Below, piece after piece: positions 5,694-62,674 of a stretch of 64,000 nt of DNA (its first letter is position 1; every line of letters starts with the position of its first letter). The notes beneath the pieces are model-generated. The model was not told the origin of the DNA. It saw only the letters and a list, made by a program, of their open reading frames with translations, and searched no databases. Source of the stretch: a virus (Duplodnaviria > Heunggongvirae > Uroviricota > Caudoviricetes). The stretch lies in the IMG/VR virus record IMGVR_UViG_2854558644_000001; one strand, given 5' to 3'. Position numbers and translations under genes: made by a program.

Positions 5694-5758
5694 GAGAGAA
5701 CATATACATATAAAGCTGCACTATCAGGCTATACGGGTAACAGAAAGGAGTGAGATTT

Positions 5759-5956: not shown

Positions 5957-5957
5957 T

Positions 5958-6434: not shown

Positions 6435-6446
6435 AGGAGAATGATT

Positions 6447-6959: not shown

Positions 6960-6987
6960 AAACATAGGAAAGATTGGAGAAAATAAA

Positions 6988-7188
6988 ATGAAATATGATG
7001 ATTTCACGAGCGGAGAATATGTGAAAAAAGAAGATGTAATGACATATTTAAGAGTGTTTGATTGGACTATGCCAAGAGAAGAATTAATTGAGAAATTTAA
7101 AGGCATTTCATCTATTACTCTTAACGACCAGGACATAAACAAAGTAAAAATAAATAAAGTGTTAAATGGTGAATGGAACAATGATTAA
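6988..7188 (+). CDS. hypothetical protein
   Basis: ORF+SD GGAG; upstream part of track ORF 6796 overlaps previous gene. Confidence 0.45.
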   Translation: MKYDDFTSGEYVKKEDVMTYLRVFDWTMPREELIEKFKGISSITLNDQDINKVKINKVLNGEWNND

Positions 7189-21476: not shown

Positions 21477-21491
21477 AGGATGGTGATAAAA

Positions 21492-25514: not shown

Positions 25515-25820
25515 TTGAGTAGATATAAGAATGGAAATCCAAAACATGCAAGCAGATTCATATGTATGAAATGTATGAATGAAAATATGTTAGCCAGTGG
25601 AATTCAGAGACAGAGACAAAGAGAACGAAAACATATTAAAGATTTGTATTGTTTGAAGTGCGGAGAGGTAACGAAGTGTATCGAAGTAAGATTTTGTGAT
25701 TCATATGAAGAAATTTTTGAGGCTGCAAAGATAAAAAGAGAGAATTATTACATAGACGAATATGAAAGTGAGGTTGATGAATATGTGTTACAAAATAGAA
25801 GTACAAAACAAAAATGCTGA
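25515..25820 (+). CDS. zinc-ribbon protein (TTG start)
   Basis: CMKCMNEN...CLKCGE; SD GAGGTGA 7 nt upstream of TTG. Confidence 0.45.
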   Translation: MSRYKNGNPKHASRFICMKCMNENMLASGIQRQRQRERKHIKDLYCLKCGEVTKCIEVRFCDSYEEIFEAAKIKRENYYIDEYESEVDEYVLQNRSTKQKC

Positions 25821-26763
25821 AAAGCTTAATAGGAAGTTGGATGAGTTAAATTTTCCTATATATATGAGAAAATATTTCACTGTTAAAATTGAAAGTAAAG
25901 CAGGTGCTTTAAATTATCTTGGAGTTATTGTAGATTTGCTCAATTGGTTTATTGAAGAGAAACTTATTGATAAAACAAATATTTCAGATATTGAGCCATC
26001 AGATTTTACTGACATTATGGCAGAAGATATCACGTTATATTTAAAGACTAAAGAACAGAATGGAATGTCACCTACGACATTAGAAACTAGAAAACATATA
26101 ATAAGTAGTTTTTGGGATTATATGAGTAGAGTGAAGGGAACTGAAATTAAAGATGGATTCTTTAAAGATGTAACTTATAAAGGGATTCCATCTGGAAACA
26201 AGTTAACTAAAAAACTTCCAACAGAAAAGCAACTTAATGATATGGAAGAAAAAATAATGTGGAAAAAGGATATTTCAGTAAGAAATAGAAATATTGCTAT
26301 TTTTCGAGTATTAAGAGGAACTGGAATAAGAGAATCTGAACTTGCTGGTTTGGATTTATCTAATTTGCATTTAGATGAAGAAATGCCTTATATTACTATT
26401 CTTGGTAAAGGTGTGTACAGAGAAATGCAAAATAGAATGGTATATCTTAGCGGATCTGCTTTAAAAGCTATAAGAGAGTGGTTAGAATACAGAAGCACAT
26501 TAAGTAACATTATTGATACAGAAGCTGTGTTTGTAAATAAAAATGGAACTCGTACAACAGAAAGAAATATCAAACAGATATTTGAGAATTATGGAAATGG
26601 TATAACACCACATATGATGCGTCATTATTATGCTAGTATAATGAACAGAAATGGAAATCTTGCATTTGTACAGCAGCAGTTAGGACATAGTAATGTAAAT
26701 ACAACAGTTAATAATTATGCAAATGGTGCAGTGGGGATGAAAGATGTGTTAAACAATATGTAA
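25777..26763 (+). CDS. tyrosine recombinase / phage integrase family protein
   Basis: HMMRHYYAS...LGHSNVNTTVNNY catalytic signature; overlaps upstream gene by ~40 nt. Confidence 0.7.
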   Translation: MNMCYKIEVQNKNAEKLNRKLDELNFPIYMRKYFTVKIESKAGALNYLGVIVDLLNWFIEEKLIDKTNISDIEPSDFTDIMAEDITLYLKTKEQNGMSPTTLETRKHIISSFWDYMSRVKGTEIKDGFFKDVTYKGIPSGNKLTKKLPTEKQLNDMEEKIMWKKDISVRNRNIAIFRVLRGTGIRESELAGLDLSNLHLDEEMPYITILGKGVYREMQNRMVYLSGSALKAIREWLEYRSTLSNIIDTEAVFVNKNGTRTTERNIKQIFENYGNGITPHMMRHYYASIMNRNGNLAFVQQQLGHSNVNTTVNNYANGAVGMKDVLNNM

Positions 26764-31423: not shown

Positions 31424-31582
31424 TGGAAGTATTTTTTATATTAATTGCAGTTGGATTAATGATTATATGGTTTCTACTGTCAAGATTTTTTCAAAAAATA
31501 GGGAATTCTACTATTAATAAAATAAAAGATGTTGTAACAGATGAAATAAATAACGAAGAAGAAAAGGAGACAAAACAACAAT
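31424..31582 (+). CDS. small membrane protein (52 aa) upstream of SPFH gene
   Basis: ORF+SD GGAGAATAA; TM segment; ATGA overlap with next gene. Confidence 0.45.
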
Positions 31583-32450
31583 GAAGAAAGTTGTAGGTGG
31601 CGTTGTATCTGCCATAGTGATACTATTTTTAGCAATAATTTTATTTAAGTCAACAGTTCGTGTTCCAGCGGGATATGTTGCAATCCAGTACAGTATGTCG
31701 GGTGGAATCAAAGGTGACGTATTAACACAGGGATGGCATTTCAAGTCACCCACAGTAAAGACTACATTATATTCTGTAAGCTTAGAACAGTCATATCTTA
31801 CAGCAGGTAAGGACGGAGACTCTAAAGATGATGATAGTTTTTCAGCTAGTTCATCTGAAGGTAAGGCTATGACATTAGATTTAACATTTACATATCAGTA
31901 CAACACTGAAAAGGTCGCTGATTTATTTACAAGGTTTAGAGGACAATCTGGTAAGGAAGTAAGAGATAGTTTTATTAAGCCTAATATCATTTCTTGGACA
32001 AAAGAAGTCGTGGCGCAGTATAAAGTATCTGATATTCTCGGTTCTGAAAGAGCAAATGTTAATGCAGCATTAACAGATTATCTTAATAAAAGATTTTCTA
32101 CATATGGAATTAATATTACAAATGTATCTCTTATTAATATTACTGTAGATGAAAATACGATGGAAGCTATTAATGCAAAGATTACAGCACAGCAGGCAGC
32201 CGAAACTCAGGAAATTAATAATCAGACAGCTATTAATAAGGCAAAGGCTGATGCAGAAGTAACTAAGGCAGAAGCACAAGCAAAGGCTGATGCACAGTTA
32301 ATCGAAGCCAAAGCACAGGCAGAGGCGAATAATAAGTTAAGTTCTTCTATTACAGATGAGCTTATAAGAATGAAGGAAGCCGAAGCAAGAAATAAATTTG
32401 GTTGGGTTACTATTTCTGGAACTAACAATACAGTTGTAACAGATAAGTAA
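31581..32450 (+). CDS. SPFH/band-7 (prohibitin/flotillin-like) membrane protein
   Basis: N-terminal TM, band-7 core and Ala/Gln/Lys-rich coiled coil. Confidence 0.7.
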   Translation: MKKVVGGVVSAIVILFLAIILFKSTVRVPAGYVAIQYSMSGGIKGDVLTQGWHFKSPTVKTTLYSVSLEQSYLTAGKDGDSKDDDSFSASSSEGKAMTLDLTFTYQYNTEKVADLFTRFRGQSGKEVRDSFIKPNIISWTKEVVAQYKVSDILGSERANVNAALTDYLNKRFSTYGINITNVSLINITVDENTMEAINAKITAQQAAETQEINNQTAINKAKADAEVTKAEAQAKADAQLIEAKAQAEANNKLSSSITDELIRMKEAEARNKFGWVTISGTNNTVVTDK

Positions 32451-38452: not shown

Positions 38453-39961
38453 TTGACAGAGAATAAAGAAAAAAATAATTATTGTGAGTTAAGTGTAATT
38501 GAACTTTGCAGTGGCATTGGAGCACAGATGAAGGGTATTGATAATACTCATCTATTTAATGCAAATATGATTGCAACAGCAGATTTAGATAAAGAAGTCG
38601 TGGTTAGTTATGCTGCAATTCATTGTGGTTTGACTAATGAAATGATTGAAAACTATGAAGATTATCCAAGCAAAGAAGAAATGGTAAAACAGCTTACAGA
38701 TAAGAGACTTGGATATGATTTTAAGAAAGATGTTCTGTATGATTGGGAGAAACTTTCACGAAAGAAGGACAAAACGAAAGGTATTGAGAAATATTGGTTA
38801 GCAGACCATATTTCACATAATCTTGGCGATATGATGCAGATTGAGTCACTGCCATATAGTGATTTACTTACATACTCGACTCCATGTACAGATCTTTCCA
38901 TTGCTGGTAAGCAAGAAGGATTAAAGTGGACATGTCATGATTGTGGTTGTGAATATGATCCATCAGAATTAGATGTAGATACTCGTTATACTTGCCCTAA
39001 TTGTGGCAGCCACAATATTAAATCAACTCGTTCAGGTTTATTGTATGAAGTTGAGAGACTTCTTGTAAAAGCAAAAGAGAATAATACATTACCAAAGTAT
39101 TTGCTTATGGAGAATGTAGATGCTCTTGTATCAAAGAAGTATATTGACAGTTTTAAGGATTGGTTGATTCGACTTGATAACTTGGGATATAACTCATATT
39201 ATCAGACAATCAATGCAAAGAATACTGGTATTCCACAGAATCGTAATAGAATCTTCTGTATCTCTATTCGTAAGGATATTGATACCAAGTCATTTGAATT
39301 TCCACAGCCTTTTGATACAGGAATCAGATTAAAGGATTTATTAGAAACAGATAGCAGTGTTCTGGAGAAATATTTCTTATCTGATGAAGTACAAAAAAGA
39401 CTTCAGATAACAGATCCAAAATTTGAAAAGAATGTAGTAGGAACAACAATTGGACAAAATTGTACCAGGTTAGGTAACAGAGATTTAGTTTATCAGCAGG
39501 ATTCAGTAATGGGTGCTTTAGTGGCAACTGATTATAAACAACCAAAACAGATTTTTGCCAATTCAAACGAACCAATACATATTGCTGATTTATGCAGCGA
39601 AAAGTTTCAGAGAATGCATGAGCAGTCTCGCAGAGTATATAGCGAAGATGGAATTGCACCAGCTATGCATACTTGCGGTGGTGGTAATACAGAACCAAAG
39701 GTTGAGAGAGATAATTTAAAAGTCGTAAGAAAGCTTACACCAAAAGAGTGTCATAGGCTCATGGGATTCAATGATATTGATTATGAGAATTGTAAAGCAG
39801 TTGGAATGTCTGATACTCAGGGATATAAACAAAGCGGTAACAGTATAGTGACAACTTGCATCTCTTTGTTGATTGAGCATTTATATAAGGCTCAGTATGA
39901 TAATACATATATTTGTACAGATGAGAAGATGGTAAATTTTCATCAGCCACAAGTGGATTAA
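38453..39961 (+). CDS. DNA (cytosine-5)-methyltransferase with zinc-ribbon insertion
   Basis: motif I LCSGIGAQ, motif IV TPCTDLSIAGK, motif VI LLMENVDAL, motif VIII GIPQNRNRIF, TRD-end RRVYSEDGIAPAMHTCGGG, IX RKLTPKECHRLMGF, X GNSIVTT; starts at TTG (first ATG would delete motif I). Confidence 0.8.
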   Translation: MTENKEKNNYCELSVIELCSGIGAQMKGIDNTHLFNANMIATADLDKEVVVSYAAIHCGLTNEMIENYEDYPSKEEMVKQLTDKRLGYDFKKDVLYDWEKLSRKKDKTKGIEKYWLADHISHNLGDMMQIESLPYSDLLTYSTPCTDLSIAGKQEGLKWTCHDCGCEYDPSELDVDTRYTCPNCGSHNIKSTRSGLLYEVERLLVKAKENNTLPKYLLMENVDALVSKKYIDSFKDWLIRLDNLGYNSYYQTINAKNTGIPQNRNRIFCISIRKDIDTKSFEFPQPFDTGIRLKDLLETDSSVLEKYFLSDEVQKRLQITDPKFEKNVVGTTIGQNCTRLGNRDLVYQQDSVMGALVATDYKQPKQIFANSNEPIHIADLCSEKFQRMHEQSRRVYSEDGIAPAMHTCGGGNTEPKVERDNLKVVRKLTPKECHRLMGFNDIDYENCKAVGMSDTQGYKQSGNSIVTTCISLLIEHLYKAQYDNTYICTDEKMVNFHQPQVD

Positions 39962-48482: not shown

Positions 48483-49370
48483 TTGAAACAAAAATATGAA
48501 TGTATTGTATCACCCATATTTTATATGGGTAATAAGAAAAAACTTATTCAAAGGGGATTAATAGAACTATTCCCAAAGGACATTGATTGCTTTATTGATG
48601 TTTTTGCAGGTAGTTCAGTAGTCTCTATGAATACAAAAGCTAATAAATATTTCATTAATGATAATGATAAAAACTTAAAGCAGTTATATAAGTTATTCAA
48701 AATATATAATTCTGATACAATTATTAATCATATCATTTCCAGAATTGATGAATATGGATTAGCGCAAGAAAGAACAAGTCATAAAGTATTTAATGATGAC
48801 AGAAAAGATAGATATAAAAATTCTTATTATGAATTTAGGAATTATTATAACACTCATAAAAATGCTCTTGATTTCTACACGCTTATGTTTTATTCATTTT
48901 CACAACAGTTTAGGTTCAATGATAAAGGTGAATTTAATATGCCATGTGGTAACGATTGTTTTTCTGATAAAAATCAAAAATATATTCGTAATGGTTGCAC
49001 ATTTTATCATTCTGATAATGTCCATATATTCAGTATGGACTTTCGCTCAATTCCAATAGATTCGATTACAACTAAAGATTTTGTATATTTAGATCCTCCA
49101 TATTTTAATACCACTGCTACATACAACGAGGCAGGTGGTTGGACTGAAAATGACGAAAATGATTTATATGATTTTTGTGAAAGACTTTCTGAGAATAATA
49201 TAAAATGGGGAATGTCTAATGTGTTTGAGAATAAAGGAATTATAAATCAAAAGTTGGTTGATTGGTGTGATAAGAACAATTTAAATGTATATACATTTGA
49301 TAAATTTACATATATGGCTTGTGGTAAAGGTAATTCAAATGCTAAAGAAGTATTTATAACAAACTATTAG
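48483..49370 (+). CDS. Dam-like (D12 class) N6-adenine DNA methyltransferase
   Basis: N-terminal SPIFYMGNKKKLI (FLKWAGGK-like), FAGSSVV motif I, YLDPPYF motif IV; TTG start needed to retain N-terminal motif. Confidence 0.75.
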   Translation: MKQKYECIVSPIFYMGNKKKLIQRGLIELFPKDIDCFIDVFAGSSVVSMNTKANKYFINDNDKNLKQLYKLFKIYNSDTIINHIISRIDEYGLAQERTSHKVFNDDRKDRYKNSYYEFRNYYNTHKNALDFYTLMFYSFSQQFRFNDKGEFNMPCGNDCFSDKNQKYIRNGCTFYHSDNVHIFSMDFRSIPIDSITTKDFVYLDPPYFNTTATYNEAGGWTENDENDLYDFCERLSENNIKWGMSNVFENKGIINQKLVDWCDKNNLNVYTFDKFTYMACGKGNSNAKEVFITNY

Positions 49371-51789: not shown

Positions 51790-53109
51790 ATGTATTGTGC
51801 TTATATCACAACATTAAAAGGATTAAGAAAACATAGTAACGCTGATAGATTACAGTGTGTAGAAGTATTTGGACAGAATGTAATTGTAGATTTGAGTTAT
51901 CAGGAAGGACAGAAAGTAGTCTTCTTCCCATCTGATGGTCAGTTGTCACTTGAATACGCAACAGATAATAACCTTGTTAGGAAGAAAGACGAGAATGGAA
52001 ACAATATTGGTGGCTACATGGATGCTGAAAAAAGAAACGTAACTGCCATTAGACTTAGAGGCGAGAAGTCAGAAGGTCTTGTGTTGCCAATTGAGACACT
52101 TGCTAAGTATACAGATATTTCAAAATTAAAAGATGGCGATCAGATTACAGTTCTTGGTGGTCATGAAATTTGTCAGAAATATATCCCAAGAGGAAAGAGT
52201 CGTTCAAAAAACAATGGAAACAATTCAAATAAGAAGAACAAGTTTCAGAAAGAGACAATATCATATCCATTTTTTGAAGAACATAAGGATACTGCACAGC
52301 TTGCATATAATATGTCAGCATTTAAGCCAGGAGATACGATTTATATTACTCGTAAGCTCCACGGAACATCAGCTCGTACTATGAAGACTGTCAAGGTTAC
52401 AAAGAAGAATAGTAAGCTGAGAAAGTTTTTACATATAAAGCCAAAGGTTATAAGAGAAGTTTCTGTTGTATCTGGTAGCAGAAGAGTTGTGTTAAAGGAT
52501 ATGACAAAGAATGATGGATATTATGCTGATAATGGATTTAGAAAGAAGTACCACGATTTATTAAAAGATAAGCTTCCTGAAGGGGCTGAAATTTTCTATG
52601 AAATTGTTGGTTATGTAAATGAAACAACACCTATTATGGGTTCTGTGTCTAATAAAGGTGTTAAAGAAAAGAAATTTACAAAGAAGTTTGGCGACACTAC
52701 AACATTCTCATATGGTTGTGAACCAGGTGAAAATGAGATGTATGTATATCGAATGACAATGACAACAGCAGATGGAACAGTTGTTGAAGTACCTTGGGAG
52801 ACTGTAGAAGTATGGTGTGACAAGTTAGGTGTTAAGCATGTACCTGATTTAGAGAAGTTTATCTATACTACACCAGAAGATTTGAAAGAAAGAGTAAATA
52901 AATATCTTGATGGTATGCCAGCAGATGAAATCGGCAAGACACATGTTGCCGAAGGTATAGTTGTTCGTATTGATAACAGAGCAACATTCACGGCTTATAA
53001 GGATAAGGTGTTTGAATTTAAGGTAATTGAGGGAATCGCCAAAGATACATCTGATGTACCTGATATGGAAGAAGCTGAAGAATTATTTGAGGAGACATTA
53101 AATGAATAA
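51790..53109 (+). CDS. ATP-dependent RNA ligase (Rnl family, KxHG motif I)
   Basis: YITRKLHGTSAR nucleotidyltransferase motif I like T4 Rnl2 KIHGTN; adjacent to polynucleotide kinase. Confidence 0.55.
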   Translation: MYCAYITTLKGLRKHSNADRLQCVEVFGQNVIVDLSYQEGQKVVFFPSDGQLSLEYATDNNLVRKKDENGNNIGGYMDAEKRNVTAIRLRGEKSEGLVLPIETLAKYTDISKLKDGDQITVLGGHEICQKYIPRGKSRSKNNGNNSNKKNKFQKETISYPFFEEHKDTAQLAYNMSAFKPGDTIYITRKLHGTSARTMKTVKVTKKNSKLRKFLHIKPKVIREVSVVSGSRRVVLKDMTKNDGYYADNGFRKKYHDLLKDKLPEGAEIFYEIVGYVNETTPIMGSVSNKGVKEKKFTKKFGDTTTFSYGCEPGENEMYVYRMTMTTADGTVVEVPWETVEVWCDKLGVKHVPDLEKFIYTTPEDLKERVNKYLDGMPADEIGKTHVAEGIVVRIDNRATFTAYKDKVFEFKVIEGIAKDTSDVPDMEEAEELFEETLNE

Positions 53110-53992
53110 ACCTACATTATGGGTTATGTGTGGTTTGAGTGGTAGTGGCAAATCAACCATTGCCACTCAGATTGCTAATGAAAATCCAAATACAATAATC
53201 GTATCATCAGATGCAATTCGTGAAGAATTAACTGGTAATTACGAAGACCAAGAACATAATGAAGAAGTGTTTAAAATTTTTCACAATAGAATCCGTAAGA
53301 ATTTGGAGAATAAAAAGAATGTAATTGCAGATGCAACTAATCTGACTATGAAATCTCGTAGAGCAATTATGATGAAAGTAAATGGTTTAAATGTTAGAAA
53401 AGTGTGTGTGATTATTCCAAAGCCATTTGAACAGTGTAAGATTGATAATAAAAATCGTGAGCATCCTGTTCCTAATGAAGTATTGGATAAACAGATTAGA
53501 AGATTTCAGATCCCATTTTACGAAGAAAAATTTGATGAGATTCAGATAAATGTATTTCATAAAGAGAATCGTTTAACTCTTGGAGAAATGTTTTCTATGA
53601 TGGAAGGGTTTGATCAGAAAAACCCTCATCATACTATGGATTTATATAATCACTCATTTCATACATATGAGTTATTTAGTAGTAAATGCTATCCAGCAAA
53701 ATATAATATAGCTGCATTATTACACGATTTTGGAAAAATGTATTGTCAAACATTTGATGAGAATGGCATAGCTCATTACTATGAACATCATGCAATCGGT
53801 TCTTATTTAATTTTAGAGAACCTATCAGGTATATTTTACGAAAATATTGGTGACATATGTTTTCTTATCAACTATCATATGATGCCTTTTAGTTGGGATA
53901 CTGATAAAGCAAAGCAGCGTTGGAAAGAAAGATTTGGAGAATATAAATATAAGATGCTTTTAGATTTTAACGAATGTGATAGAGCGAGGTAA
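53102..53992 (+). CDS. polynucleotide kinase (P-loop) fused to HD-domain phosphohydrolase
   Basis: Walker A GLSGSGKST; HD motifs HHTMDLYNH...LLHDFGK. Confidence 0.65.
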   Translation: MNKPTLWVMCGLSGSGKSTIATQIANENPNTIIVSSDAIREELTGNYEDQEHNEEVFKIFHNRIRKNLENKKNVIADATNLTMKSRRAIMMKVNGLNVRKVCVIIPKPFEQCKIDNKNREHPVPNEVLDKQIRRFQIPFYEEKFDEIQINVFHKENRLTLGEMFSMMEGFDQKNPHHTMDLYNHSFHTYELFSSKCYPAKYNIAALLHDFGKMYCQTFDENGIAHYYEHHAIGSYLILENLSGIFYENIGDICFLINYHMMPFSWDTDKAKQRWKERFGEYKYKMLLDFNECDRAR

Positions 53993-56448: not shown

Positions 56449-57000
56449 ATGAAGAACACAAATTGGAAAGTGCCAGTAATTATTGGCGTAGGAGTATTAG
56501 CGGTTATTTTGATGATTGTATTTGGTGTACAGAGTTCGCAGAATAAAGCTATTGCACTTGAGGAGCAGGTAAATACAGCATCATCAGATATTAAAGTACA
56601 GGAAAAGCGAAGAGTTGACCTTGTGTATAACCTTGCTGATTGCGTAAAACAGTATGACAAACATGAAGCTGATACATTGACAGCAGTTGCGGATGGTCGT
56701 GGATCAACAGGAGATATTGAGAATGTAACAACAGCTATTACGGCAGTTGCAGAAGCATATCCTGAGCTGAAGTCCAATGAGAATTATAAGACTCTTATGA
56801 ATGAATTATCTATGACAGAGAATATGATTGCAGAGTATCGCAGCAATTACAATAAACAGATTAAGGAATACAAACGATATGTGAGAAAGTTCCCTACAAG
56901 ACAGTTTCTTGGATTGCTTGGATACGAAGTGCAGGAATATGAGTATCTGGATTACAATGCGCCAGTTGATGCTCCACAGGATTTGTTTAAAGAGGATTAG
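56449..57000 (+). CDS. lemA: LemA-family membrane protein
   Basis: N-terminal TM then RRVDLVYNLADCVKQYDKHE...EAYPELKSNENYKTLMNELSMTENMIAEYRSNYN...FPTRQF, matches LemA family along its length. Confidence 0.75.
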   Translation: MKNTNWKVPVIIGVGVLAVILMIVFGVQSSQNKAIALEEQVNTASSDIKVQEKRRVDLVYNLADCVKQYDKHEADTLTAVADGRGSTGDIENVTTAITAVAEAYPELKSNENYKTLMNELSMTENMIAEYRSNYNKQIKEYKRYVRKFPTRQFLGLLGYEVQEYEYLDYNAPVDAPQDLFKED

Positions 57001-57003
57001 TAT

Positions 57004-57756
57004 ATGAGATATGGTTTTGATTTTGGCGATTTTGAAATAACAAAACGTGAAATCTTGGCTAGTATTTCTATCATTGCAGTTATGATTCTGTTTGGTATTC
57101 TGATTTCTTCTAAGATTTCAGAACACCAAATGGATAAAAATGAAATTTATAACAAAGCTGTTAAGATAGAAAGTCAAGAAATGTTCCAATATGGAATGGA
57201 TACAAATGTTGGTAATGCATTTGTATATGGTGATTTGAAAGCAGTAGATGCAGTTACATATCCTGAAATTAGTGGAGAATATATGTATGTAGAAAAAGTC
57301 AAAGAGCGATACACAATGCATACAAGACAAGTAGCTCATACAAGAACTGTTAATGGCAAATCACAAACTTATTATACAACAGAAACATATTGGACTTGGG
57401 ATAGAGTCGGAAGTGAAAATATTAAGTGTAAAGAAGTATCATTTTGTGGAGTAAATTTCACAAGTAATAAAATTAATTTACCTGGTACTGATTATATTGA
57501 CACAATTAAAGAGTCGAGTCATGTAAGATATAAATATTATGGTGTTGGTACTGAATATAAAGGAACAATTTTTACAGATTTGAGAGATAAAACCATTTCT
57601 GATAACACATCATTTTATAATAATTCGACTATTGACGAGACGATAGAAAGATTAGAATCTGATTTTCCAATTATTATTTTCTGGTTCTTTTGGGTTATTT
57701 TAATCGGTGGAATGGTATTTGGGTTCTACTATTTGGATAACAGGTGGTTAGATTAA
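57004..57756 (+). CDS. membrane protein (N- and C-terminal TM helices), LemA operon partner
   Basis: ORF+SD GAGGATTAG; TM at both ends. Confidence 0.55.
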   Translation: MRYGFDFGDFEITKREILASISIIAVMILFGILISSKISEHQMDKNEIYNKAVKIESQEMFQYGMDTNVGNAFVYGDLKAVDAVTYPEISGEYMYVEKVKERYTMHTRQVAHTRTVNGKSQTYYTTETYWTWDRVGSENIKCKEVSFCGVNFTSNKINLPGTDYIDTIKESSHVRYKYYGVGTEYKGTIFTDLRDKTISDNTSFYNNSTIDETIERLESDFPIIIFWFFWVILIGGMVFGFYYLDNRWLD

Positions 57757-57775: not shown

Positions 57776-58414
57776 ATGAGTAGCAGTGGCATTTATGGAA
57801 TAAGAAAAGATTATACAGGAGAAGAGATATTTGAATATAAAAACTCATGGTGGTTTTCTCCTATAATTTGGAGTGTCTTACCAGATAAATATATTCATGA
57901 TTACATTCAAACACCATTTGGTTTTAAAAAGGGAATTATTGGAATGGATGGGAACGATGTATGGACAAGAACTAACAAATCCATTAATGAGTGCGATAAC
58001 ACACCTGATAGGGTTTGTTGGGAGATGTCGAATCAACAGATTTTTCATACATCTGACAAACAAATTATTTCAGATTCTATTATGCAATTCTTAAAACAAA
58101 ATGATACTTATGATGTATCAGAAGAAGATAATGTTCCCGTTTTAAAAAGAGAACATATCATTGAGAGATTTACAGAAATAGCAAATGATATTTTATCAAT
58201 TGATGAAAATGAATTTCCATATTTTGTATTTAAAAATACAACAGTGGATGATGGTGTTGAGAGATGGTTTGAAAAATATGACGAGGAATCTGATGAATAT
58301 GTTTCGTGTGCAATGTCAGAAAATACAGATGATTTTTATGCAGAATTTGTATTTTTCAAAGATGGAAAAATTAACAAATTTGTAAGTAACAAAGATTATC
58401 AGTTTGAATCATAG
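57776..58414 (+). CDS. hypothetical protein
   Basis: ORF+SD AAAGGAGAACAA. Confidence 0.55.
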   Translation: MSSSGIYGIRKDYTGEEIFEYKNSWWFSPIIWSVLPDKYIHDYIQTPFGFKKGIIGMDGNDVWTRTNKSINECDNTPDRVCWEMSNQQIFHTSDKQIISDSIMQFLKQNDTYDVSEEDNVPVLKREHIIERFTEIANDILSIDENEFPYFVFKNTTVDDGVERWFEKYDEESDEYVSCAMSENTDDFYAEFVFFKDGKINKFVSNKDYQFES

Positions 58415-58438
58415 AAAGAAATTTTTCTTTCTTGGGAG

Positions 58439-58630
58439 GTGATTAATATATTTCGTATAGAGAAAACTGAAGTTGTAAATGGATGTGATTGTTGGGGAAG
58501 ACCAGAATATGATGATGTATATGAAGTTTATTGTAATGATGAATTTGTATGTCGTATGTCAAGTGATCCAACAATATTAGTTGATAAGATAAATGATGTT
58601 TTAAATAGTTATAGGAGAATAATTATATAG
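58439..58630 (+). CDS. hypothetical protein (non-ATG start)
   Basis: frame opens at GTG inside SD GGGAGGTG; in-frame ATA 8 nt after SD; CDCWG motif. Confidence 0.45.
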   Translation: MINIFRIEKTEVVNGCDCWGRPEYDDVYEVYCNDEFVCRMSSDPTILVDKINDVLNSYRRIII

Positions 58631-58677
58631 GACAGCTAATTAATAAAACAGTATTATGAAAAATCGGAGGAAAAAGA

Positions 58678-58881
58678 ATGAAAAGAGGAGATATTATTGA
58701 ATTAATTGAGGATACAACATTTTATAAAAAAGGTAAGAAGGCTTATTTTATTGGTAGATCAAATTTTAATCCTAATAAAATTGAAATTGTTTGGGTTGGT
58801 GAAGAACAGGCTTATAAAGATGGCGATATAGACGAATTTCCAGCTAGATTGTTTAAGCAGGTTGAACATGGCGATAGGTGA
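58678..58881 (+). CDS. hypothetical protein
   Basis: ORF+SD CGGAGGAAAAAG. Confidence 0.55.
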   Translation: MKRGDIIELIEDTTFYKKGKKAYFIGRSNFNPNKIEIVWVGEEQAYKDGDIDEFPARLFKQVEHGDR

Positions 58882-59158
58882 TGGAAGAAGAACATATTCA
58901 GATAGTACATTAAAGTCTATGACAAAAGATGAGCTGATTGATATTATTCGCTGCTTAGAAAGTAATCTTAGAAATGCACATGAGACAAATGATATTCAGT
59001 ATGAGAATTGTAAGAGGTTGCTAAGTGAAAATGGGATAATTCAAGGTGGATATAAGAAGAAAATTGATGAACAGACAGAGGCTTGGATTAAAGCAGGATT
59101 GACATTATCAGAAGCAGACAAAGAAGAATTGATGAGAATGTCGCAGTTAAGAGAATAA
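58868..59158 (+). CDS. hypothetical protein
   Basis: ORF overlapping upstream gene by 14 nt. Confidence 0.45.
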   Translation: MAIGDGRRTYSDSTLKSMTKDELIDIIRCLESNLRNAHETNDIQYENCKRLLSENGIIQGGYKKKIDEQTEAWIKAGLTLSEADKEELMRMSQLRE

Positions 59159-59200
59159 GTAATTGTAAACAATAATTTTATATCATAGGAGGAAATAAAT

Positions 59201-59818
59201 ATGATGAACAATTTTTTAAATGGCATGTTTGGTAAGGTAGGAAGTGGAATGTGTAGACTTTCTATGAATGGTGGAATTGCAGTTAAGACAAATGGTGGTT
59301 ATAAGACATATAACATCAAGACTGGCAAGCTCACAAACTGTAGTAACTTTGTATTTGATATTGGAGAGGAATTCTTCTTTATTATTCCAACTAATAAGGT
59401 AGAGAAGGGTGACATCATTCTTGTAAATGGTAAGCCAAGATGTGTTATTGAAGCCGATAAGACAAAGATTACAGTAATCAATTATGAGGACTCAACAATT
59501 GAAACCGTGCTTCCTGAAAGACATGTATTTATGGGCAATACATATTTTTATGGAAAGATTGTTTCGATGTTTGGAAGTGATGTTATTAAAGGTAAGAAAG
59601 GTACAAATAATATCTTTAAGTACATGATGCTTTCTCAGATGATGAAAAGTGATAATGGTTCTGCTGGCATGATGAATGGCAATGGTGGAATGAGTTCTAT
59701 GTTACCACTTATGATGATGGGTGGAAATATGGGTGATATGTTTGACGGAATGTTCGACTTTGATATGAGTAGCAATGATGACGATGATACAGAAGTAGAT
59801 GAAGAGGAGGAGGCATAA
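59201..59818 (+). CDS. hypothetical protein with Gly/Met-rich and poly-acidic C-terminus
   Basis: ORF+SD TAGGAGGAAATAA. Confidence 0.55.
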   Translation: MMNNFLNGMFGKVGSGMCRLSMNGGIAVKTNGGYKTYNIKTGKLTNCSNFVFDIGEEFFFIIPTNKVEKGDIILVNGKPRCVIEADKTKITVINYEDSTIETVLPERHVFMGNTYFYGKIVSMFGSDVIKGKKGTNNIFKYMMLSQMMKSDNGSAGMMNGNGGMSSMLPLMMMGGNMGDMFDGMFDFDMSSNDDDDTEVDEEEEA

Positions 59819-59819
59819 T

Positions 59820-60698
59820 ATGGGATGCGGTTCATGGACAAGAGATAGTTATGTAAGTTATTCAACAACAAAGGGTATGAGTGTTTCAACGGATGGTATG
59901 ATTAGAGGTTCTTATTCTAATCAGGACATGTTTAAGGCAAGAAATATTGATTCTGCACTTGATCCTAAGAATGTTATTAGAGAGTGTTGCGATACAGAGG
60001 AACATCCAAACACAATTCCTGTTATTCTTGCACTTGATGTAACTGGTTCTATGGGACAGGCTGCCGTTGAAGTGGCAAAGAAGTTAAATGTAATTATGAC
60101 TAAGTTATATGAAAAGGTTACAGATGTTGAGTTCCTTATCATGGGTATTGGTGATTTAGCTTGTGATAGCTATCCAATTCAGGCTTCACAGTTTGAGTCA
60201 GATATTCGTATTGCTGAACAGCTTGACAAGATTTATTTTGAATTTGGCGGTGGTGGAAATAGTTATGAATCCTACACAGCAGCATGGTATTTCGGTTCTC
60301 GTCACACAAAGCTTGATTGCTTAAACCGTGGAAGAAAAGGAATTATTATTACAATGGGTGATGAGCAGTTAAATCCATATCTTCCATTTAAGAGTAGAGG
60401 TCATGGCTTATCAGAGGTGACAGGTGATAACCTTCAGTCTGATGTAGAGACTAAGGATTTATACGAAGAGGCTTCTCAGAAGTTTAACATTTATCATTTA
60501 GATGTAAATCACGGTCACAGATGGGATGAAGAAGAAATTGAGAAGTCCTACAAGAAGTATCTTGATGATACACACTTTAGAAGAGTAACTATGGATAGTA
60601 TTACAAATGAGATTGTAGATATTATTGTTAGTGAAGCAGAGAATAATGTTACAGATACAGTTACTACACCTTCTAACTCAGAAGGAATTACTTGGTAG
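59820..60698 (+). CDS. von Willebrand factor A (vWA) domain protein
   Basis: MIDAS-like LALDVTGSMG and downstream ITMGDEQ; SD GAGGAGGAGG. Confidence 0.65.
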   Translation: MGCGSWTRDSYVSYSTTKGMSVSTDGMIRGSYSNQDMFKARNIDSALDPKNVIRECCDTEEHPNTIPVILALDVTGSMGQAAVEVAKKLNVIMTKLYEKVTDVEFLIMGIGDLACDSYPIQASQFESDIRIAEQLDKIYFEFGGGGNSYESYTAAWYFGSRHTKLDCLNRGRKGIIITMGDEQLNPYLPFKSRGHGLSEVTGDNLQSDVETKDLYEEASQKFNIYHLDVNHGHRWDEEEIEKSYKKYLDDTHFRRVTMDSITNEIVDIIVSEAENNVTDTVTTPSNSEGITW

Positions 60699-60715
60699 GA
60701 TAGGAGATTTAAGAG

Positions 60716-61807
60716 ATGAAAGACATTAAGATTGTAATAGGTGCTAACTTTGGAGATTGTGGAAAGGGATTAATGACAGATTATTTCTCACAGAAACCTA
60801 ATAGTATTGTTGTTTGTTCAAATGGTGGTGCTCAGAGAGGACATACCGTAACAACGCCTGATGGAATCAGACATGTCTTTCATCATTTTGGATCTGGAAC
60901 ATTCAATCATGCAAGTACATATTTATCTGAGGATTTTATTGTTAATCCAATTATCTTTAAGCAGGAATATGATGAATTGATGAAATTAGGATATATTACG
61001 AATGTTTATATCAATCAAAATTGTATGTTGACTACACCTTTTGATATGATGGCAAATCAGATTATAGAAGAAAATCGTGGAAAAAATAAACATGGTAGTT
61101 GTGGCTTGGGAATTTTTGAAACTATCAAAAGATATAAAGCTGGCATAACTGATGTAGATAATCATATCAGGGAATACTACTTAGAACAATTTGAAAGAGA
61201 GAATATTATATTAACAGATGAATGGTCAAAAATATTCCTTGATAATGGTATATTTGAACACTTTTTAGATGATTGGGATTTTATGAATAATCACTCATTG
61301 GCTATATCAGATAATTATTTCTTAAATCAATTTGACAATATTGTATTTGAAGCTGCACAAGGTTTATTGCTTGATCAGAACAACACAGAATATTTTCCAC
61401 ATCTAACACCGTCTAATACAGGTATTAAAAATCCCAAGAGAATAATTGAAAATGTTGAATGGAATGATGAGATAAATATTGAAACTTGTTATGTATCTCG
61501 TACTTATTTAACAAGACATGGTGCTGGTAAATTCCCATCTGAATGTAATAAGAGATTTATCAACGAATATATGTTTGATAAAACAAATGTGCCAAATCCA
61601 TTCCAGGATACATTGAGATATGGAACACTGGATTTAGGAGAATTATATAGTAGATGCTCTAATGATATAGGAAACTTTGGAGATAAAAAATCAATCACCA
61701 TTACACATTGTAATGAATATGATTGGGATAATGATAAATTGATTGAGTTATTCAAGGATTGGAATATTTATTACTCAGATGGTGAAACACATAATGATGT
61801 GAACTGA
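60716..61807 (+). CDS. adenylosuccinate synthetase family protein (PurA/PurZ-like, short form)
   Basis: N-terminal VIGANFGDCGKGLMTDYF (GDEGKGK-like P-loop) and NGGAQRGHTV...HVFHHFGSG (QGGHNAGHT...LIPSG-like); 363 aa. Confidence 0.7.
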   Translation: MKDIKIVIGANFGDCGKGLMTDYFSQKPNSIVVCSNGGAQRGHTVTTPDGIRHVFHHFGSGTFNHASTYLSEDFIVNPIIFKQEYDELMKLGYITNVYINQNCMLTTPFDMMANQIIEENRGKNKHGSCGLGIFETIKRYKAGITDVDNHIREYYLEQFERENIILTDEWSKIFLDNGIFEHFLDDWDFMNNHSLAISDNYFLNQFDNIVFEAAQGLLLDQNNTEYFPHLTPSNTGIKNPKRIIENVEWNDEINIETCYVSRTYLTRHGAGKFPSECNKRFINEYMFDKTNVPNPFQDTLRYGTLDLGELYSRCSNDIGNFGDKKSITITHCNEYDWDNDKLIELFKDWNIYYSDGETHNDVN

Positions 61808-61849
61808 GAACAAGAAAGATTCGTTCTTTTGGAAATATGGAGGTAAAAA

Positions 61850-62410
61850 ATGGAGAAATTTTATATTGTAACAAATGAAGATTTTTTAAAAGGGTTACAT
61901 CGTGATGAAGTAATAGAAAAAAACAGAAGAGAATTTATCAAAGATTTTTTCAATCGCATAGGAATAAGTGGAAATCATTATTATATGCGTGGAGATGGTA
62001 ATGTTAATGTTGCGTTTAAGGAAAACACAAAAAGTAATATTGAATTGTATATTGATGATGTGCAGGAAAATAGTGAAAAATTTGGTAATCAATTAAACAA
62101 ACCTAAAATGTTTGAAGGTCAAAGTATGAGAAAGTTTAAAAAAGGTTGCAAAATATTAAAGCAATTTCAAGATGAATGTATTAAAAAGGAGATAGTTATT
62201 AATGCTTATCCTTTGAGGTGTGGAGACTACTTCGAAGAAACGGAAATGGGTGGCTATTCAAGAACAAGTTTTGAATACAATGGAAAACAATACTTACGTA
62301 TGAGTACTAATCGCTATAATTCATTAACTCCTTATGAAAATGGTTTTGAAGAGATAAAAGGCAGTGAGTTTTATAAAGCATTTGAAGAATTTGAATCAAA
62401 AAATAAGTAA
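61850..62410 (+). CDS. hypothetical protein
   Basis: ORF+SD TGGAGGTAAAAA. Confidence 0.55.
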   Translation: MEKFYIVTNEDFLKGLHRDEVIEKNRREFIKDFFNRIGISGNHYYMRGDGNVNVAFKENTKSNIELYIDDVQENSEKFGNQLNKPKMFEGQSMRKFKKGCKILKQFQDECIKKEIVINAYPLRCGDYFEETEMGGYSRTSFEYNGKQYLRMSTNRYNSLTPYENGFEEIKGSEFYKAFEEFESKNK

Positions 62411-62437
62411 TATCGGTTTCGTGTGGAGGTGAAACGA

Positions 62438-62674
62438 ATGATAACACCATCAGTAATGCAAGGATTAACAAATGAAAATACAATGCTGTCAAGTGTTTCT
62501 ATAGAAGATTTAGAAGAGTATAAGAAAAATGCTTGTAAAATTCTTAGAAGTCAGACGCAGTGTGCTACTGCAAAAATCGTAGAAGAATTGATTGATCAGG
62601 AAATTATGAATAGAAGAATTATTGAAGAGTGGAATAAAATCTATGAAAAATTTCCTGAATATGTTGGAATGTAG
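62438..62674 (+). CDS. hypothetical protein
   Basis: ORF+SD GTGGAGGTGAAA. Confidence 0.5.
   Translation: MITPSVMQGLTNENTMLSSVSIEDLEEYKKNACKILRSQTQCATAKIVEELIDQEIMNRRIIEEWNKIYEKFPEYVGM

What the first reader, a model, noticed from the sequence alone, without database searches (positions are those of the whole stretch)
59201..61807. vWA protein plus short adenylosuccinate-synthetase homolog: possible PurZ-like (2-aminoadenine) or novel nucleotide-modifying cluster
60716..61807 is clearly PurA-family: GDCGKG P-loop and NGGAQRGHTV...HHFGSG. At 363 aa it is shorter than cellular PurA (~430 aa) and closer in size to phage PurZ, which makes N6-succino-2-amino-dAMP for Z-genomes. It is directly preceded by a vWA/MIDAS protein (59820..60698) and a protein with an OB-like core and a Gly/Met-rich, poly-Asp/Glu tail (59201..59818). 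No DatZ/MazZ homologs are visible in this window. The HD domain in 53102..53992 is fused to a kinase and more likely RNA-related. The cluster may instead be a distinct purine-modification or nucleotide-signalling system.
Basis: partly seen in the sequence, partly recalled or inferred. Interest (0 to 1): 0.6.

Follow-up and report, generated by a model that had tools for sequence, protein, structure and literature searches.

The report
vWA-partnered PurA-like ligase, not PurZ
The three genes are real, but the enzyme is neither the adenine-replacing PurZ nor an ordinary AMP-synthesis enzyme; it belongs to a third, unstudied branch of that enzyme family that is almost always encoded directly after one particular metal-binding partner protein, in thousands of phages and bacteria.

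Summary
**Observation: confirmed.**
- 59201-59818, 59820-60698 and 60716-61807 are three tightly packed + strand genes.
- The last is a PurA-superfamily protein (PF00709, 1.2e-34).

**PurZ reading: not supported.**
- Asp13 is kept; all known PurZ/PurZ0 have Ser.
- The NCBIfam PurZ model scores 43.6 against a cut-off of 300.
- The protein falls in a separate clade (100% bootstrap).
- No DatZ, MazZ or DpoZ is found in the window or in a 176-kb relative.

**Ordinary PurA: also unlikely.**
- Equivalog score is 99 against a cut-off of 402.
- The L-aspartate determinants are replaced by other invariant residues.

**What is there.**
- A conserved cassette whose core is vWA followed by the PurA-like gene. 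The pair is adjacent in 77/80 genome loci and 77/78 viral loci.
- It also occurs in Mycobacterium cluster C, Vibrio and Rhizobium phages. The vWA family has about 2,285 clusters at 50% identity.
- The slot upstream holds either the window's 205-aa protein or a J-domain pseudokinase. An NrtR-like Nudix regulator is often adjacent.

**Best reading (inferred).** An NTP-dependent purine 6-oxo ligase that uses an amine other than free aspartate, works with its vWA partner, and acts in phage-host conflict. Its function is untested.

The parts
59201..59818 (+). 205-aa accessory protein ('C5'). It has a conserved N-terminal small beta-barrel-like domain (residues ~8-125), a Met-rich helix, a Gly/Met-rich linker, an (L/M)F(D/E)G(M/L)FDF motif and an acidic tail. 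It fills the slot directly upstream of the vWA gene that a J-domain pseudokinase fills in other lineages.
   Evidence: ORF. No Pfam, PHROG or PADLOC family. Homologues lie directly upstream of the vWA gene in 25 of 84 genome loci and 43 of 78 viral loci, never together with the J-domain protein. Conservation pattern. Weak KOW/eIF5A-N similarity only. Absent from the Va1, RHph_Y65 and Tonenili loci.
59820..60698 (+). vWA/MIDAS protein (292 aa), the obligate partner of the PurA-like gene. It has an invariant N-terminus MGxxxW, invariant RE, LDVTGSM (MIDAS), QxxQFExDxR, GGGGN and GDE motifs, and a disordered tail ending in an aromatic residue (...GITW).
60716..61807 (+). PurA-superfamily NTP-dependent ligase of a third clade (363 aa). 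Catalytic Asp13, Lys16, His41 and Gln224 equivalents are kept. The L-Asp pocket and part of the IMP 5'-phosphate pocket are rebuilt (N38Q, T129C, V273H, T301Q, no R303). The guanine-specifying Asp333 is Asn.
   Evidence: PF00709 1.2e-34. phrog_1211 1.3e-65. NCBIfam PurA 99 vs 402 and PurZ 43.6 vs 300. Alignments and residue counts. Tree. AF2 pLDDT 80.3, with the known mobile active-site loops at low confidence. Foldseek best hits are PurA at 5e-15, PurZ from rank 27.

Best explanation
SHOWN. The locus is one copy of a widespread, self-contained gene cassette. Its invariant core is a MIDAS-bearing vWA protein followed by a divergent PurA-superfamily enzyme. That enzyme forms a third clade, distinct from cellular PurA and from phage PurZ/PurZ0. 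The slot upstream of the vWA gene is filled by interchangeable accessory proteins: here the 205-aa protein, elsewhere a J-domain plus pseudokinase protein. An NrtR-like Nudix/wHTH regulator often lies beside the cassette.

INFERRED mechanism, step 1. The enzyme keeps every residue PurA uses to transfer the gamma-phosphate of an NTP onto the 6-oxo group of a purine nucleotide and then displace it with an amine. It therefore most likely still does this chemistry. In the window's lineage the guanine-specifying Asp is Asn, so the NTP may not be GTP.

INFERRED, step 2. The residues that recognise free L-aspartate, and two of the four that hold the IMP 5'-phosphate, are replaced by other invariant residues. 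The amine, and perhaps the exact nucleotide, therefore differ from the PurA reaction. Trp11 is Phe/Tyr as in PurZ, so a 2-substituted purine is possible.

INFERRED, step 3. The vWA protein acts as an obligate Mg2+-dependent binding subunit. It either presents or positions the second substrate, or gates the enzyme. The upstream accessory protein couples the pair to a client or to host Hsp70.

INFERRED role. A nucleotide-centred function in phage-host conflict rather than bulk AMP synthesis or genome-wide base replacement.
For: Pairing.
- A PurA-like gene lies immediately downstream of the vWA gene, on the same strand, in 77 of 80 genome loci found with the vWA profile. The 3 exceptions are contig ends.
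- In the reverse direction, 77 of 78 viral loci found with the PurA-like profile have the vWA gene upstream, on contigs up to 494 kb.
- The same pair occurs in Vibrio phage Va1, Rhizobium phage RHph_Y65 and Mycobacterium phage Tonenili.
- Pairwise distances of the two proteins correlate at r=0.82, Mantel 0/999.
- RBS-linked, near-abutting genes with no terminator-like site inside the module.

Third clade.
- NJ bootstrap is 100% for the vWA-linked clade, 100% for PurZ+PurZ0 and 99% for PurA.
- The window protein is 41% identical to its own clade and 18-21% to the others.
- The phage records found by the window protein and by phiVC8 PurZ come from different host genera: Mycobacterium and Rhizobium against Arthrobacter, Microbacterium and Gordonia. 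Only Vibrio, Acinetobacter and Listeria names appear in both summaries.

Chemistry kept. G12-D13-x-G15-K16-G17, H41, Q224, T239, E221 and T-R(271-272) are present in 78-80 of 80 sequences.

Pockets rebuilt. N38Q 78/80, T129C 75/80, P135E 79/80, V273H 80/80, T301Q 80/80, R303 absent 80/80, D333 as D 48 / N 32. Asn is found in 22/25 members of the 205-aa-protein lineage.

vWA fold and MIDAS.

Conflict-type features.
- Accessory displacement: the J-domain (HPD conserved) pseudokinase against the 205-aa protein.
- NrtR-like regulator in 46/84 loci, often divergent.
- Ordinary, unrelated chromosomal neighbours in Clostridium drakei and Competibacter.
- This matches the hallmarks listed for Nudix-TF/vWA-containing conflict systems in PMC9503650.

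Residue roles (D13, H41, K16, Q224 catalytic; N38, T129, T239, R143 for the IMP 5'-phosphate; V273, T300, T301, R303 for L-Asp; K331, D333, S414 for guanine) are from my own knowledge of the E. coli PurA literature. They were not checked in the paper library.
Against: - No biochemical datum exists for any member. All mechanism steps are inference from residue conservation and gene context.
- The 298-306 loop aligns ambiguously by 1-5 residues between runs. One Arg is retained in it (78/80), so a carboxylate-bearing amine, even aspartate in a shifted register, is not excluded.
- One close relative of the window phage (L206) has the PurA-like gene without the vWA and 205-aa genes, so the enzyme may work alone.
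- PADLOC has no model for any part, and no defence or anti-defence phenotype is known.
- The NrtR-like regulator, the J-domain protein and the nicotinamidase-like gene are absent from the window and from MT835469.1.
- Many 'genome' loci are MAG contigs that could be phage DNA.
- The 80-locus samples are the best matches, not random samples.
- The tree is distance-based, with only three cellular PurA sequences and no archaeal PurA.
Confidence: 0.55

Rival explanations
1. PurZ-like enzyme. It makes N6-succino-2-amino-dAMP from dGMP, so that the phage genome carries 2-aminoadenine (Z) instead of adenine.
For: - The PHROG family that contains PurZ hits at 1.3e-65.
- The length is PurZ-like.
- Phe at the Trp11 position is shared with PurZ. 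Thr may be shared at the VpPurZ T262 column, but that loop alignment is uncertain.
- The preprint 10.1101/2025.10.22.683976 reports that a PurZ S14D mutant loses substrate selectivity, so Asp13 alone does not forbid dGMP use.
Against: - Asp13 is kept in 78/78 sequences, whereas 100% of 147 phage PurZ/PurZ0 have Ser.
- NCBIfam PurZ scores 43.6 against a cut-off of 300.
- Separate clade at 100% bootstrap.
- The ATP-stacking F295/Y298 are H/E here.
- The Asp pocket that PurZ needs is rebuilt.
- No DatZ, MazZ, DpoZ or PolA in the window or in the 176-kb relative.
- The cassette occurs in ordinary bacterial chromosomal contexts.
- The window encodes a D12-class N6-adenine DNA methyltransferase.
- The known PurZ loci examined here carry no vWA partner.
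Confidence: 0.03
2. Ordinary auxiliary PurA. It boosts IMP-to-AMP conversion during infection, for example to rebuild the adenine nucleotide pool after host deaminase-type defence. The vWA gene is just a conserved neighbour.
For: - All catalytic residues are intact.
- The best sequence and structure matches in the PDB are bacterial PurA.
- One relative keeps the enzyme without the vWA gene.
- One Arg is kept in the 300s loop.
Against: - PurA equivalog models score 99 against a cut-off of 402.
- V273H, T301Q, loss of R303, T129C and N38Q are invariant across the clade.
- Asp333 is Asn in the window.
- The Pfam match stops at profile position 281 of 416.
- Near-obligate adjacency and co-divergence with the vWA gene across phyla is not expected for a stand-alone metabolic gene.
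- The bacterial genomes that carry the cassette would be expected to have a normal purA as well. That was not checked here.
Confidence: 0.14
3. Polynucleotide-level base modification. The enzyme activates a 6-oxopurine (inosine or guanine) inside RNA or DNA, for example a tRNA, and aminates it. The vWA protein (as in Ro60 or Ku) and the small-barrel protein with an acidic tail act as nucleic-acid handling partners.
For: - The determinants for a free 5'-phosphate are partly lost: T129C, N38Q, and no conserved R143.
- An RNA ligase and a kinase-HD RNA-repair-type pair lie about 6 kb upstream in the window and in relatives. Tonenili has a polynucleotide kinase three genes upstream.
- The 205-aa protein has a barrel + flexible linker + acidic tip layout reminiscent of SSB.
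Against: - No nucleic-acid-binding domain is detected in any of the three proteins.
- The association with RNA-repair genes is loose and is not seen in the bacterial loci.
- T239, another 5'-phosphate ligand, is invariant.
- No known PurA-fold enzyme acts on polymers (my own knowledge).
Confidence: 0.1
4. Non-catalytic NTPase switch or chaperone pair. The PurA-like protein only binds and hydrolyses NTP to drive or gate the vWA protein, by analogy with MoxR-vWA pairs.
For: - vWA proteins commonly pair with an NTPase. MoxR-vWA pairs are described in phages in PMC7824862.
- Chaperone-flavoured accessories are present: a J-domain with a conserved HPD, and a Gly/Met-rich tail.
Against: - Residues needed only for the purine and amine steps (D13, H41, Q224, T239) are invariant, as are the new H273 and Q301. 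That argues for a full two-substrate active site.
- The fold is PurA, not AAA+.
Confidence: 0.08

Closest known systems
Adenylosuccinate synthetase PurA (E. coli 1ADE/1CG0; B. anthracis 4M9D)
   Same: - Same fold: Foldseek 5e-15, TM about 0.65.
- Same P-loop GDxGKG, with catalytic Asp13, Lys16, His41 and Gln224.
- The same mobile active-site loops are the low-confidence segments of the AF2 model.
   Different: - Fails the equivalog cut-offs: 99 against 402.
- L-Asp determinants V273, T300, T301 and R303 are replaced by H, an aromatic residue, Q and nothing.
- N38Q and T129C. R143 is not conserved.
- D333 is Asn in the window.
- About 70 residues shorter.
- Always paired with a vWA gene.
PurZ / PurZ0 (phiVC8 6FM1, S-2L 7ODX, Archimedes 7VF6)
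   Same: - Phage-borne PurA-superfamily enzymes of similar length.
- Phe/Tyr at the Trp11 position.
- Loss of the canonical guanine-binding (T)KLD motif in the window lineage.
   Different: - Asp rather than Ser at position 13.
- Separate clade.
- 18-19% identity.
- No DatZ, MazZ or DpoZ partners.
- PurZ keeps an aspartate-using reaction, whereas this clade has a rebuilt amine pocket.
- The PurZ loci examined have no vWA gene.
NTPase-vWA two-component pairs (MoxR-vWA such as CbbQ/CbbO and NorQ/NorD; BchI/BchD)
   Different: The partner has a PurA fold with a complete ligase active site, not an AAA+ ATPase. No MoxR gene lies in the neighbourhoods.
TerY-P triad (vWA TerY + Ser/Thr kinase + PP2C phosphatase)
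   Same: A vWA protein encoded directly after a kinase-fold protein in many loci, including Mycobacterium phage Tonenili.
   Different: The kinase-fold protein lacks the catalytic Asp and the DFG motif and carries an N-terminal J-domain. There is no PP2C. The third gene is PurA-like. The window itself has no kinase-fold gene.
Nudix-TF/vWA-containing ARG-centred conflict systems predicted in PMC9503650
   Same: An NrtR-like Nudix-wHTH regulator next to the operon, a vWA 'peptide-binding chaperone' component, interchangeable accessory modules and patchy distribution.
   Different: The effector here is a PurA-like ligase, not an ADP-ribosylglycohydrolase or phosphatase. The regulator is absent from the window phage.

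Membership tests
PurZ / PurZ0 (2-amino-adenylosuccinate synthetase) | Ser (rarely Gly) replaces the catalytic Asp13 of PurA | tested here: not met
   The window has GDCGKG. Asp is present in 78/78 aligned clade members, and Ser in all six PurZ/PurZ0 references. The criterion comes from PMC12884076.
PurZ / PurZ0 (2-amino-adenylosuccinate synthetase) | Branches within the PurZ+PurZ0 clade | tested here: not met
   NJ tree over 378 columns with 200 bootstraps: the vWA-linked clade gets 100% and PurZ+PurZ0 gets 100% as separate groups. This is a distance method with limited outgroups.
PurZ / PurZ0 (2-amino-adenylosuccinate synthetase) | Scores above the curated NCBIfam PurZ model cut-off (NF038379, 300 bits) | tested here: not met
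   43.6 bits.
PurZ / PurZ0 (2-amino-adenylosuccinate synthetase) | Genome also encodes dATP/dGTP-clearing enzymes (DatZ, MazZ/DUF550, DutZ) and usually DpoZ | tested here: not met
   phmmer at E<=1 with phiVC8 and S-2L DatZ, S-2L MazZ, phiVC8 DpoZ and partial NTP-PPases finds nothing in the window or in the 176-kb MT835469.1. These were single-sequence queries only. DutZ, DmtZ and DUF5664 were not searched.
PurZ / PurZ0 (2-amino-adenylosuccinate synthetase) | Virion DNA contains 2-aminoadenine; the enzyme converts dGMP + Asp | not testable with these tools
   Needs LC-MS of virion DNA and an enzyme assay.
Canonical adenylosuccinate synthetase PurA | Scores above the curated equivalog cut-offs (TIGR00184 395 bits; NF002223 402 bits) | tested here: not met
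   82.9 and 99 bits. The matches end near residue 280. The Pfam family-level domain PF00709 is met, at 120 bits against a cut-off of 27.
Canonical adenylosuccinate synthetase PurA | Catalytic Asp13, Lys16, His41 and Gln224 and the GDxGKG P-loop | tested here: met
   Present in the window and in 78-80 of 80 clade members.
Canonical adenylosuccinate synthetase PurA | L-aspartate determinants Val273, Thr300, Thr301 and Arg303 | tested here: not met
   His 80/80; Tyr/Phe/Trp/His; Gln 80/80; no residue aligned to R303. The loop register is uncertain by a few residues, but no register restores TTGR. Residue roles are from my own knowledge.
Canonical adenylosuccinate synthetase PurA | IMP 5'-phosphate determinants Asn38, Thr129, Thr239 and Arg143 (in trans) | tested here: inconclusive
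   Thr239 is kept 80/80. Asn38 is Gln 78/80. Thr129 is Cys 75/80. The Arg143 column is not conserved and is poorly aligned.
Canonical adenylosuccinate synthetase PurA | Guanine-specifying Lys331 and Asp333 | tested here: not met
   The window has His and Asn. Across the clade, K331 is H/C and D333 is D 48 / N 32.
vWA / MIDAS domain proteins | von Willebrand A (Rossmann-like alpha/beta) fold | tested here: met
vWA / MIDAS domain proteins | MIDAS motif DxSxS plus downstream Thr and Asp | tested here: met
   D73-V-T75-G-S77 is invariant. T163 and D181 (GDE) are also invariant. Assigning T163 and D181 to the metal site is by position in the fold, not by a modelled metal.
TerY-P triad | vWA gene with an active Ser/Thr kinase and a PP2C phosphatase | tested here: not met
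   No PP2C in any neighbourhood cluster. The kinase-fold partner lacks the HRD Asp and the DFG motif. The window has neither gene.
MoxR-vWA chaperone pairs | Adjacent MoxR-class AAA+ ATPase | tested here: not met
   No such gene among the recurrent neighbours in 84 + 78 loci.
Known anti-phage defence systems (PADLOC-DB v2) | Match to a component model | tested here: not met
   No hit for the vWA, PurA-like or 205-aa protein. Only generic kinase hits for the Tonenili kinase-fold protein.

The most novel reading that the evidence does not exclude
The PurA-like enzyme does not use a free amino acid at all. After activating the 6-oxo group of a purine nucleotide, it couples C6 to a protein amine held by its partner. 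The most attractive candidate is the alpha-amine of the invariant N-terminal Gly2 of the vWA protein itself, exposed after Met removal. The result would be an N6-(protein)-adenylate-type adduct ('protein purinylation') that switches the vWA protein on or off in a phage-host conflict.

This reading would explain four things:
- the loss of the aspartate carboxylate ligands;
- the fixed MGxxxW N-terminus (83/85 sequences; profile position 1 equals residue 1 in nearly all of the top 150 family representatives);
- the near-obligate adjacency of the two genes;
- the co-divergence of the two proteins.

Nothing here tests it directly.
Probability: 0.07. Interest if true: 0.9.

Novelty: new variant of a known kind. 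Interest (0 to 1): 0.62.

Why it matters
**Annotation.**
- PurA-superfamily genes in phages are currently read as either PurZ (Z-genomes) or 'PurA-like'. RefSeq/PHROG-based pipelines already label the cluster C mycobacteriophage, Rhizobium and Vibrio Va1-like genes '2-aminooxy adenylosuccinate synthetase'.
- These genes form a separate clade that keeps Asp13, has a rebuilt amine pocket and has an obligate vWA partner. That prevents false Z-genome calls.

**A testable two-protein system.**
- The system is abundant: about 2,285 clusters at 50% identity.
- It is present in more than 200 cultured, genetically tractable mycobacteriophages.
- It is very common in human-gut phages.

**If the enzyme couples a purine to a new amine.**
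- It would be new nucleotide chemistry on a classic fold.
- The J-domain pseudokinase and NrtR-like regulator would tie it to Hsp70 and to ADP-ribose sensing in phage-host conflict.

Tried and rejected
**Searches that gave nothing.**
- Pfam at E<=10 on four vWA homologues: no vWA hit.
- PADLOC: nothing for the three proteins.
- NCBIfam: only sub-threshold PurA and PurZ hits.
- Profile of the 205-aa protein against PDB: only E about 1 matches to the eIF5A N-domain. The OB or SSB reading is left unproven.
- tblastn and phmmer for homologues of the 205-aa protein and of the downstream 186-aa ORF in the Va1, RHph_Y65 and Tonenili loci: none. Neither belongs to the universal core.
- Promoter and terminator scan of 58300-62600: promoter-like sites below shuffled expectation, no terminators.
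- Nine literature searches: nothing on this clade or on a vWA-PurA pairing, and no open-access text to verify the E. coli residue roles.
- Representative search for fusion proteins (Rosetta stone): none among the top 150.

**Readings rejected.**
- TerY-P and MoxR-vWA membership. See the membership tests.
- A direct NAD-salvage role. The hints are an NrtR-like regulator, a nicotinamidase-like gene in 5 loci, and NAD genes near RHph_Y65 and L008. The association is too loose, it is absent from the window, and PurA chemistry has no obvious NAD substrate.

**Not done.**
- Complex prediction, because no multimer tool was available.
- A maximum-likelihood tree.
- The last fold search.


Full report
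**What is in the sequence**

The window is a low-GC (about 31%) phage region with nearly all genes on the + strand. It is 82% identical over the finding to an unannotated 176-kb human-faecal phage record, MT835469.1. Close relatives are very common in human-gut metagenomes, on viral contigs of about 90-216 kb.

The three ORFs of the finding exist as described.
- The middle gene starts at 59820. A GAGGAGG ribosome-binding site lies inside the end of the upstream gene, whose TAA stop ends at 59818.
- Homologues of the middle gene start MGxxxW in 83 of 85 cases.
- The PurA-like ATG at 60716 follows the vWA stop by 17 nt and has an AGGAG.
- No terminator-like site lies inside the module.

**The PurA homologue is neither PurZ nor ordinary PurA**

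Family-model scores:
- Pfam PF00709 hits at 1.2e-34 but covers only profile positions 1-281 of 416.
- The PHROG hit is phrog_1211, the family that carries the PurZ label.
- NCBIfam's curated PurZ model gives only 43.6 bits against a cut-off of 300. The PurA equivalogs give 83-99 bits against 395-402.
- Sequence search of the PDB finds bacterial PurA (8.7e-17) and no PurZ structure at E<1e-3.
- The AF2 model (pLDDT 80.3) is closest to PurA structures. PurZ and PurZ0 appear from rank 27.

I aligned the window protein with E. coli PurA, four PurZ, two PurZ0, two Gram-positive PurA sequences and 38 representatives of its own clade.
- The NJ tree gives three groups: vWA-linked 100%, PurZ+PurZ0 100%, PurA 99% (200 bootstraps).
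- The window protein is 41% identical to its own clade and 18-21% to the others.
- Poubanne et al. 2026 (PMC12884076) found 481 phage PF00709 homologues. The 147 phage PurZ/PurZ0 all have Ser in place of Asp13, and the rest were left as 'other PurA homologs'.
- The window has GDCGKG, and all 78 aligned clade members keep Asp.
- The PurZ ATP-stacking residues F295/Y298 are H/E here.

Z-genome accessory genes are missing.
- No DatZ, MazZ, DpoZ or PolA relative is found in the window or in the whole of MT835469.1. The searches were phmmer at E<=1 with single-sequence queries.
- The window also encodes a D12-class N6-adenine DNA methyltransferase and a C5 methyltransferase. This is mild evidence for ordinary bases.

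**Active-site anatomy**

Residue roles are from my own knowledge of E. coli PurA work.
- **Kept in 78-80 of 80 sequences:** G12, D13, G15, K16, G17, H41, T42, E221, Q224, G225, T239 and the T-R at 271-272. This is the machinery for phosphorylating the 6-oxo group and displacing it with an amine.
- **Changed to new, equally invariant residues:** N38Q (78), Q34N (77), T128S-T129C giving 'GSCG' (79, 75), P135E (79), V273H giving 'TRHG' (80), G298N (78) and T301Q (80). T300 becomes aromatic. No residue aligns to R303. One Arg is kept at 305/306 (78). K331 becomes H or C.
- **The guanine-specifying D333:** Asp in 48 and Asn in 32. Asn is found in 22 of 25 members of the window's sub-lineage.
- **Trp11:** Phe or Tyr, as in PurZ.
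- **Caveat:** the 298-306 loop aligns differently between runs, so single-residue equivalences there are uncertain. No register restores the TTGR aspartate loop.
- **Consistency check:** the AF2 low-confidence segments are exactly the PurA loops that order on ligand binding.

**The partner is a true vWA/MIDAS protein**
- Sequence models miss it.
- An AF2 model built on 87 diverse homologues is confident (pLDDT 85.9, pTM 0.87).
- D73-x-T75-x-S77, T163 and D181 are invariant, as are R54-E55, Q121, Q124-F125-E126, D128, R130 and a GGGGN loop.
- The last 14 residues are disordered and end in an aromatic residue. This holds across the family (ISW, VRF, IEF).

**The pair is a conserved unit**
- Homologues of the vWA gene sit directly upstream of the PurA-like gene in Vibrio phage Va1, Rhizobium phage RHph_Y65 and Mycobacterium phage Tonenili. 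Identity is 33-40% and E runs from 1e-40 to 2e-54.
- A vWA-profile scan of one genome per species kept 80 loci. In 77 the PurA-like gene follows on the same strand. The other three contigs end first.
- The reverse scan, with a PurA-like profile in IMG/VR, gave 78 new loci on contigs up to 494 kb. 77 have the vWA gene upstream.
- The exception, L206, is a close relative of the window phage that lacks both the vWA gene and the 205-aa gene.
- Distances of the two proteins correlate at r=0.82 (Mantel 0/999).
- The vWA family has 2,285 clusters at 50% identity (880 at E<=1e-30). Nearly all are about 300 aa and start at residue 1. No fusions appear in the top 150.
- phiVC8 PurZ retrieves 211 phage records dominated by Arthrobacter, Vibrio, Microbacterium, Acinetobacter and Gordonia phages. 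The window protein retrieves 239 dominated by Mycobacterium cluster C, Rhizobium and Vibrio Va1-like phages. Vibrio, Acinetobacter and Listeria names occur in both summaries, and I did not compare accession lists.

**Accessory genes**

Neighbours were clustered.
- A J-domain plus kinase-fold protein lies directly upstream of the vWA gene in 39 of 84 genome loci and 22 of 78 viral loci, including Tonenili gp283. Its HPD motif is conserved. The catalytic Asp and the DFG motif are absent, with GGWW in place of DFG.
- The window's 205-aa protein occupies the same slot in 25 and 43 loci, never together with the J-domain protein.
- Some loci have neither accessory, for example Va1 and RHph_Y65.
- An NrtR-like protein (NUDIX + NrtR wHTH, E 1e-18 to 8e-20) is adjacent in 46 of 84 loci, and is often divergently transcribed in Proteobacteria.
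- A nicotinamidase-like gene recurs in 5 loci.
- In Clostridium drakei and Competibacter the neighbours are ordinary, unrelated chromosomal genes. In an alphaproteobacterial chromosome they include a hybrid sensor kinase-like protein, an AMP-dependent synthetase-like protein and an ABC transporter-like protein. That last identification is my own reading of the sequences; no family search was run.
- None of these accessories is in the window or in MT835469.1.
- A conserved core, displaced accessory modules, a Nudix-TF regulator and a vWA 'peptide-binding chaperone' are the hallmarks Iyer et al. 2022 (PMC9503650) list for conflict systems. PADLOC knows none of the parts.

**Interpretation**
- **Shown:** a third PurA-superfamily clade with an obligate vWA partner.
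- **Inferred:** the enzyme still activates a purine 6-oxo group with an NTP. It couples it to an amine other than free L-aspartate. It needs the vWA protein as a binding, presenting or gating subunit. The cassette serves phage-host conflict.

I give the whole statement 0.55. The descriptive part is much firmer than the mechanistic part.

| Reading | Probability |
|---|---|
| PurZ-like | 0.03 |
| Ordinary PurA | 0.14 |
| Polynucleotide base modification | 0.10 |
| Non-catalytic NTPase switch | 0.08 |

The most novel reading not excluded is ligation of the purine to the invariant N-terminal Gly of the vWA partner, at about 0.07.

**Limits**
- There is no biochemistry for any member.
- The tree is distance-based, with few outgroups and no archaeal PurA.
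- The locus samples are the best matches, not random samples.
- Many 'genome' loci are MAG contigs.
- ORFs in fetched loci were called by my own script.
- The loop alignment around residues 298-306 is uncertain.
- E. coli residue roles come from memory.
- Nine literature searches of the held library found nothing on this clade. That does not prove it is undescribed elsewhere.

Noticed in passing
window 51790-53109 and 53102-53992: An RNA ligase (PF09414, phrog_968) overlaps the start of an AAA_33/KTI12-type kinase fused to an HD domain. This is an RNA-repair-type pair about 6 kb upstream of the module. The same pair recurs in relatives (L010-L012). Mycobacterium phage Tonenili has a polynucleotide kinase three genes upstream of its J-domain/vWA/PurA-like genes.
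   Followed up: partly
window 56449-57000 and 57004-57756: A LemA-family protein (phrog_1383, labelled 'virion structural protein') is followed by a phrog_3886 protein with apparent hydrophobic segments near both ends. The pair recurs upstream of the module in several relatives.
   Followed up: no
window 38453-39961, 48483-49370, 21480-22502, 25762-26763, 12539-13726, 31581-32450: A C5 cytosine DNA methyltransferase, a D12-class N6-adenine methyltransferase, two tyrosine recombinase/integrase-family genes, a beta-clamp-like protein and an SPFH/Band 7 protein. Relatives carry SPbeta-type domains (YorH, YorF, YopX). This suggests a large, possibly temperate, Bacillota (Lachnospiraceae-type) phage.
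   Followed up: partly
L204 6915-7988 (also L210, L211, L220, L235, L253); L192 7053-7991: In several relatives an ORF of about 310-357 aa, rich in Cys-x-x-Cys zinc-ribbon-like motifs, is inserted exactly between the vWA and PurA-like genes. It looks like a homing-endonuclease-type mobile insertion splitting the pair.
   Followed up: no
L206 7600-9092: A near-identical PurA-like gene in a close relative of the window phage that lacks both the 205-aa gene and the vWA gene. This is the only orphan among 78 viral loci.
   Followed up: partly
L057 8001-9993, L072 8001-9992, L184 6557-7471 and 9475-10560: Loci with two vWA paralogues, either tandem upstream of the PurA-like gene or flanking it.
   Followed up: no
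phage records (e.g. NC_031080.1, NC_070967.1, OR413349.1): RefSeq/pharokka-style annotation names the cluster C mycobacteriophage, Rhizobium and Vibrio Va1-like genes '2-aminooxy adenylosuccinate synthetase' (PurZ). This probably happens because phrog_1211 lumps this Asp13-bearing clade with true PurZ. It is likely a systematic mis-annotation.
   Followed up: partly
window 59820-59840 and 60657-60698; family alignments A2, A3: The vWA partner has an invariant N-terminus Met-Gly-x-x-x-Trp. After a disordered tail, its C-terminus ends G-[LIV]-[IV]-x-[WF]. Both look like docking or reactive termini.
   Followed up: partly
L029, L030, L032 (about 800-7150), L048, L052: An isochorismatase/nicotinamidase-like gene lies between the NrtR-like gene and the module in two different lineages. 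NAD-related genes (NMNAT/Nudix, a PRTase-like gene, NAD synthase) also lie within a few kb in RHph_Y65 and L008. This is a loose, unexplained link to NAD/ADP-ribose metabolism.
   Followed up: partly
window 58439-59158: Three small ORFs (63, 67 and 98 aa) lie directly upstream of the 205-aa gene. Close relatives have a fixed block of three ORFs of about 100 aa in the same place (L007-L012 7514-8443), while the flanks further out vary.
   Followed up: no
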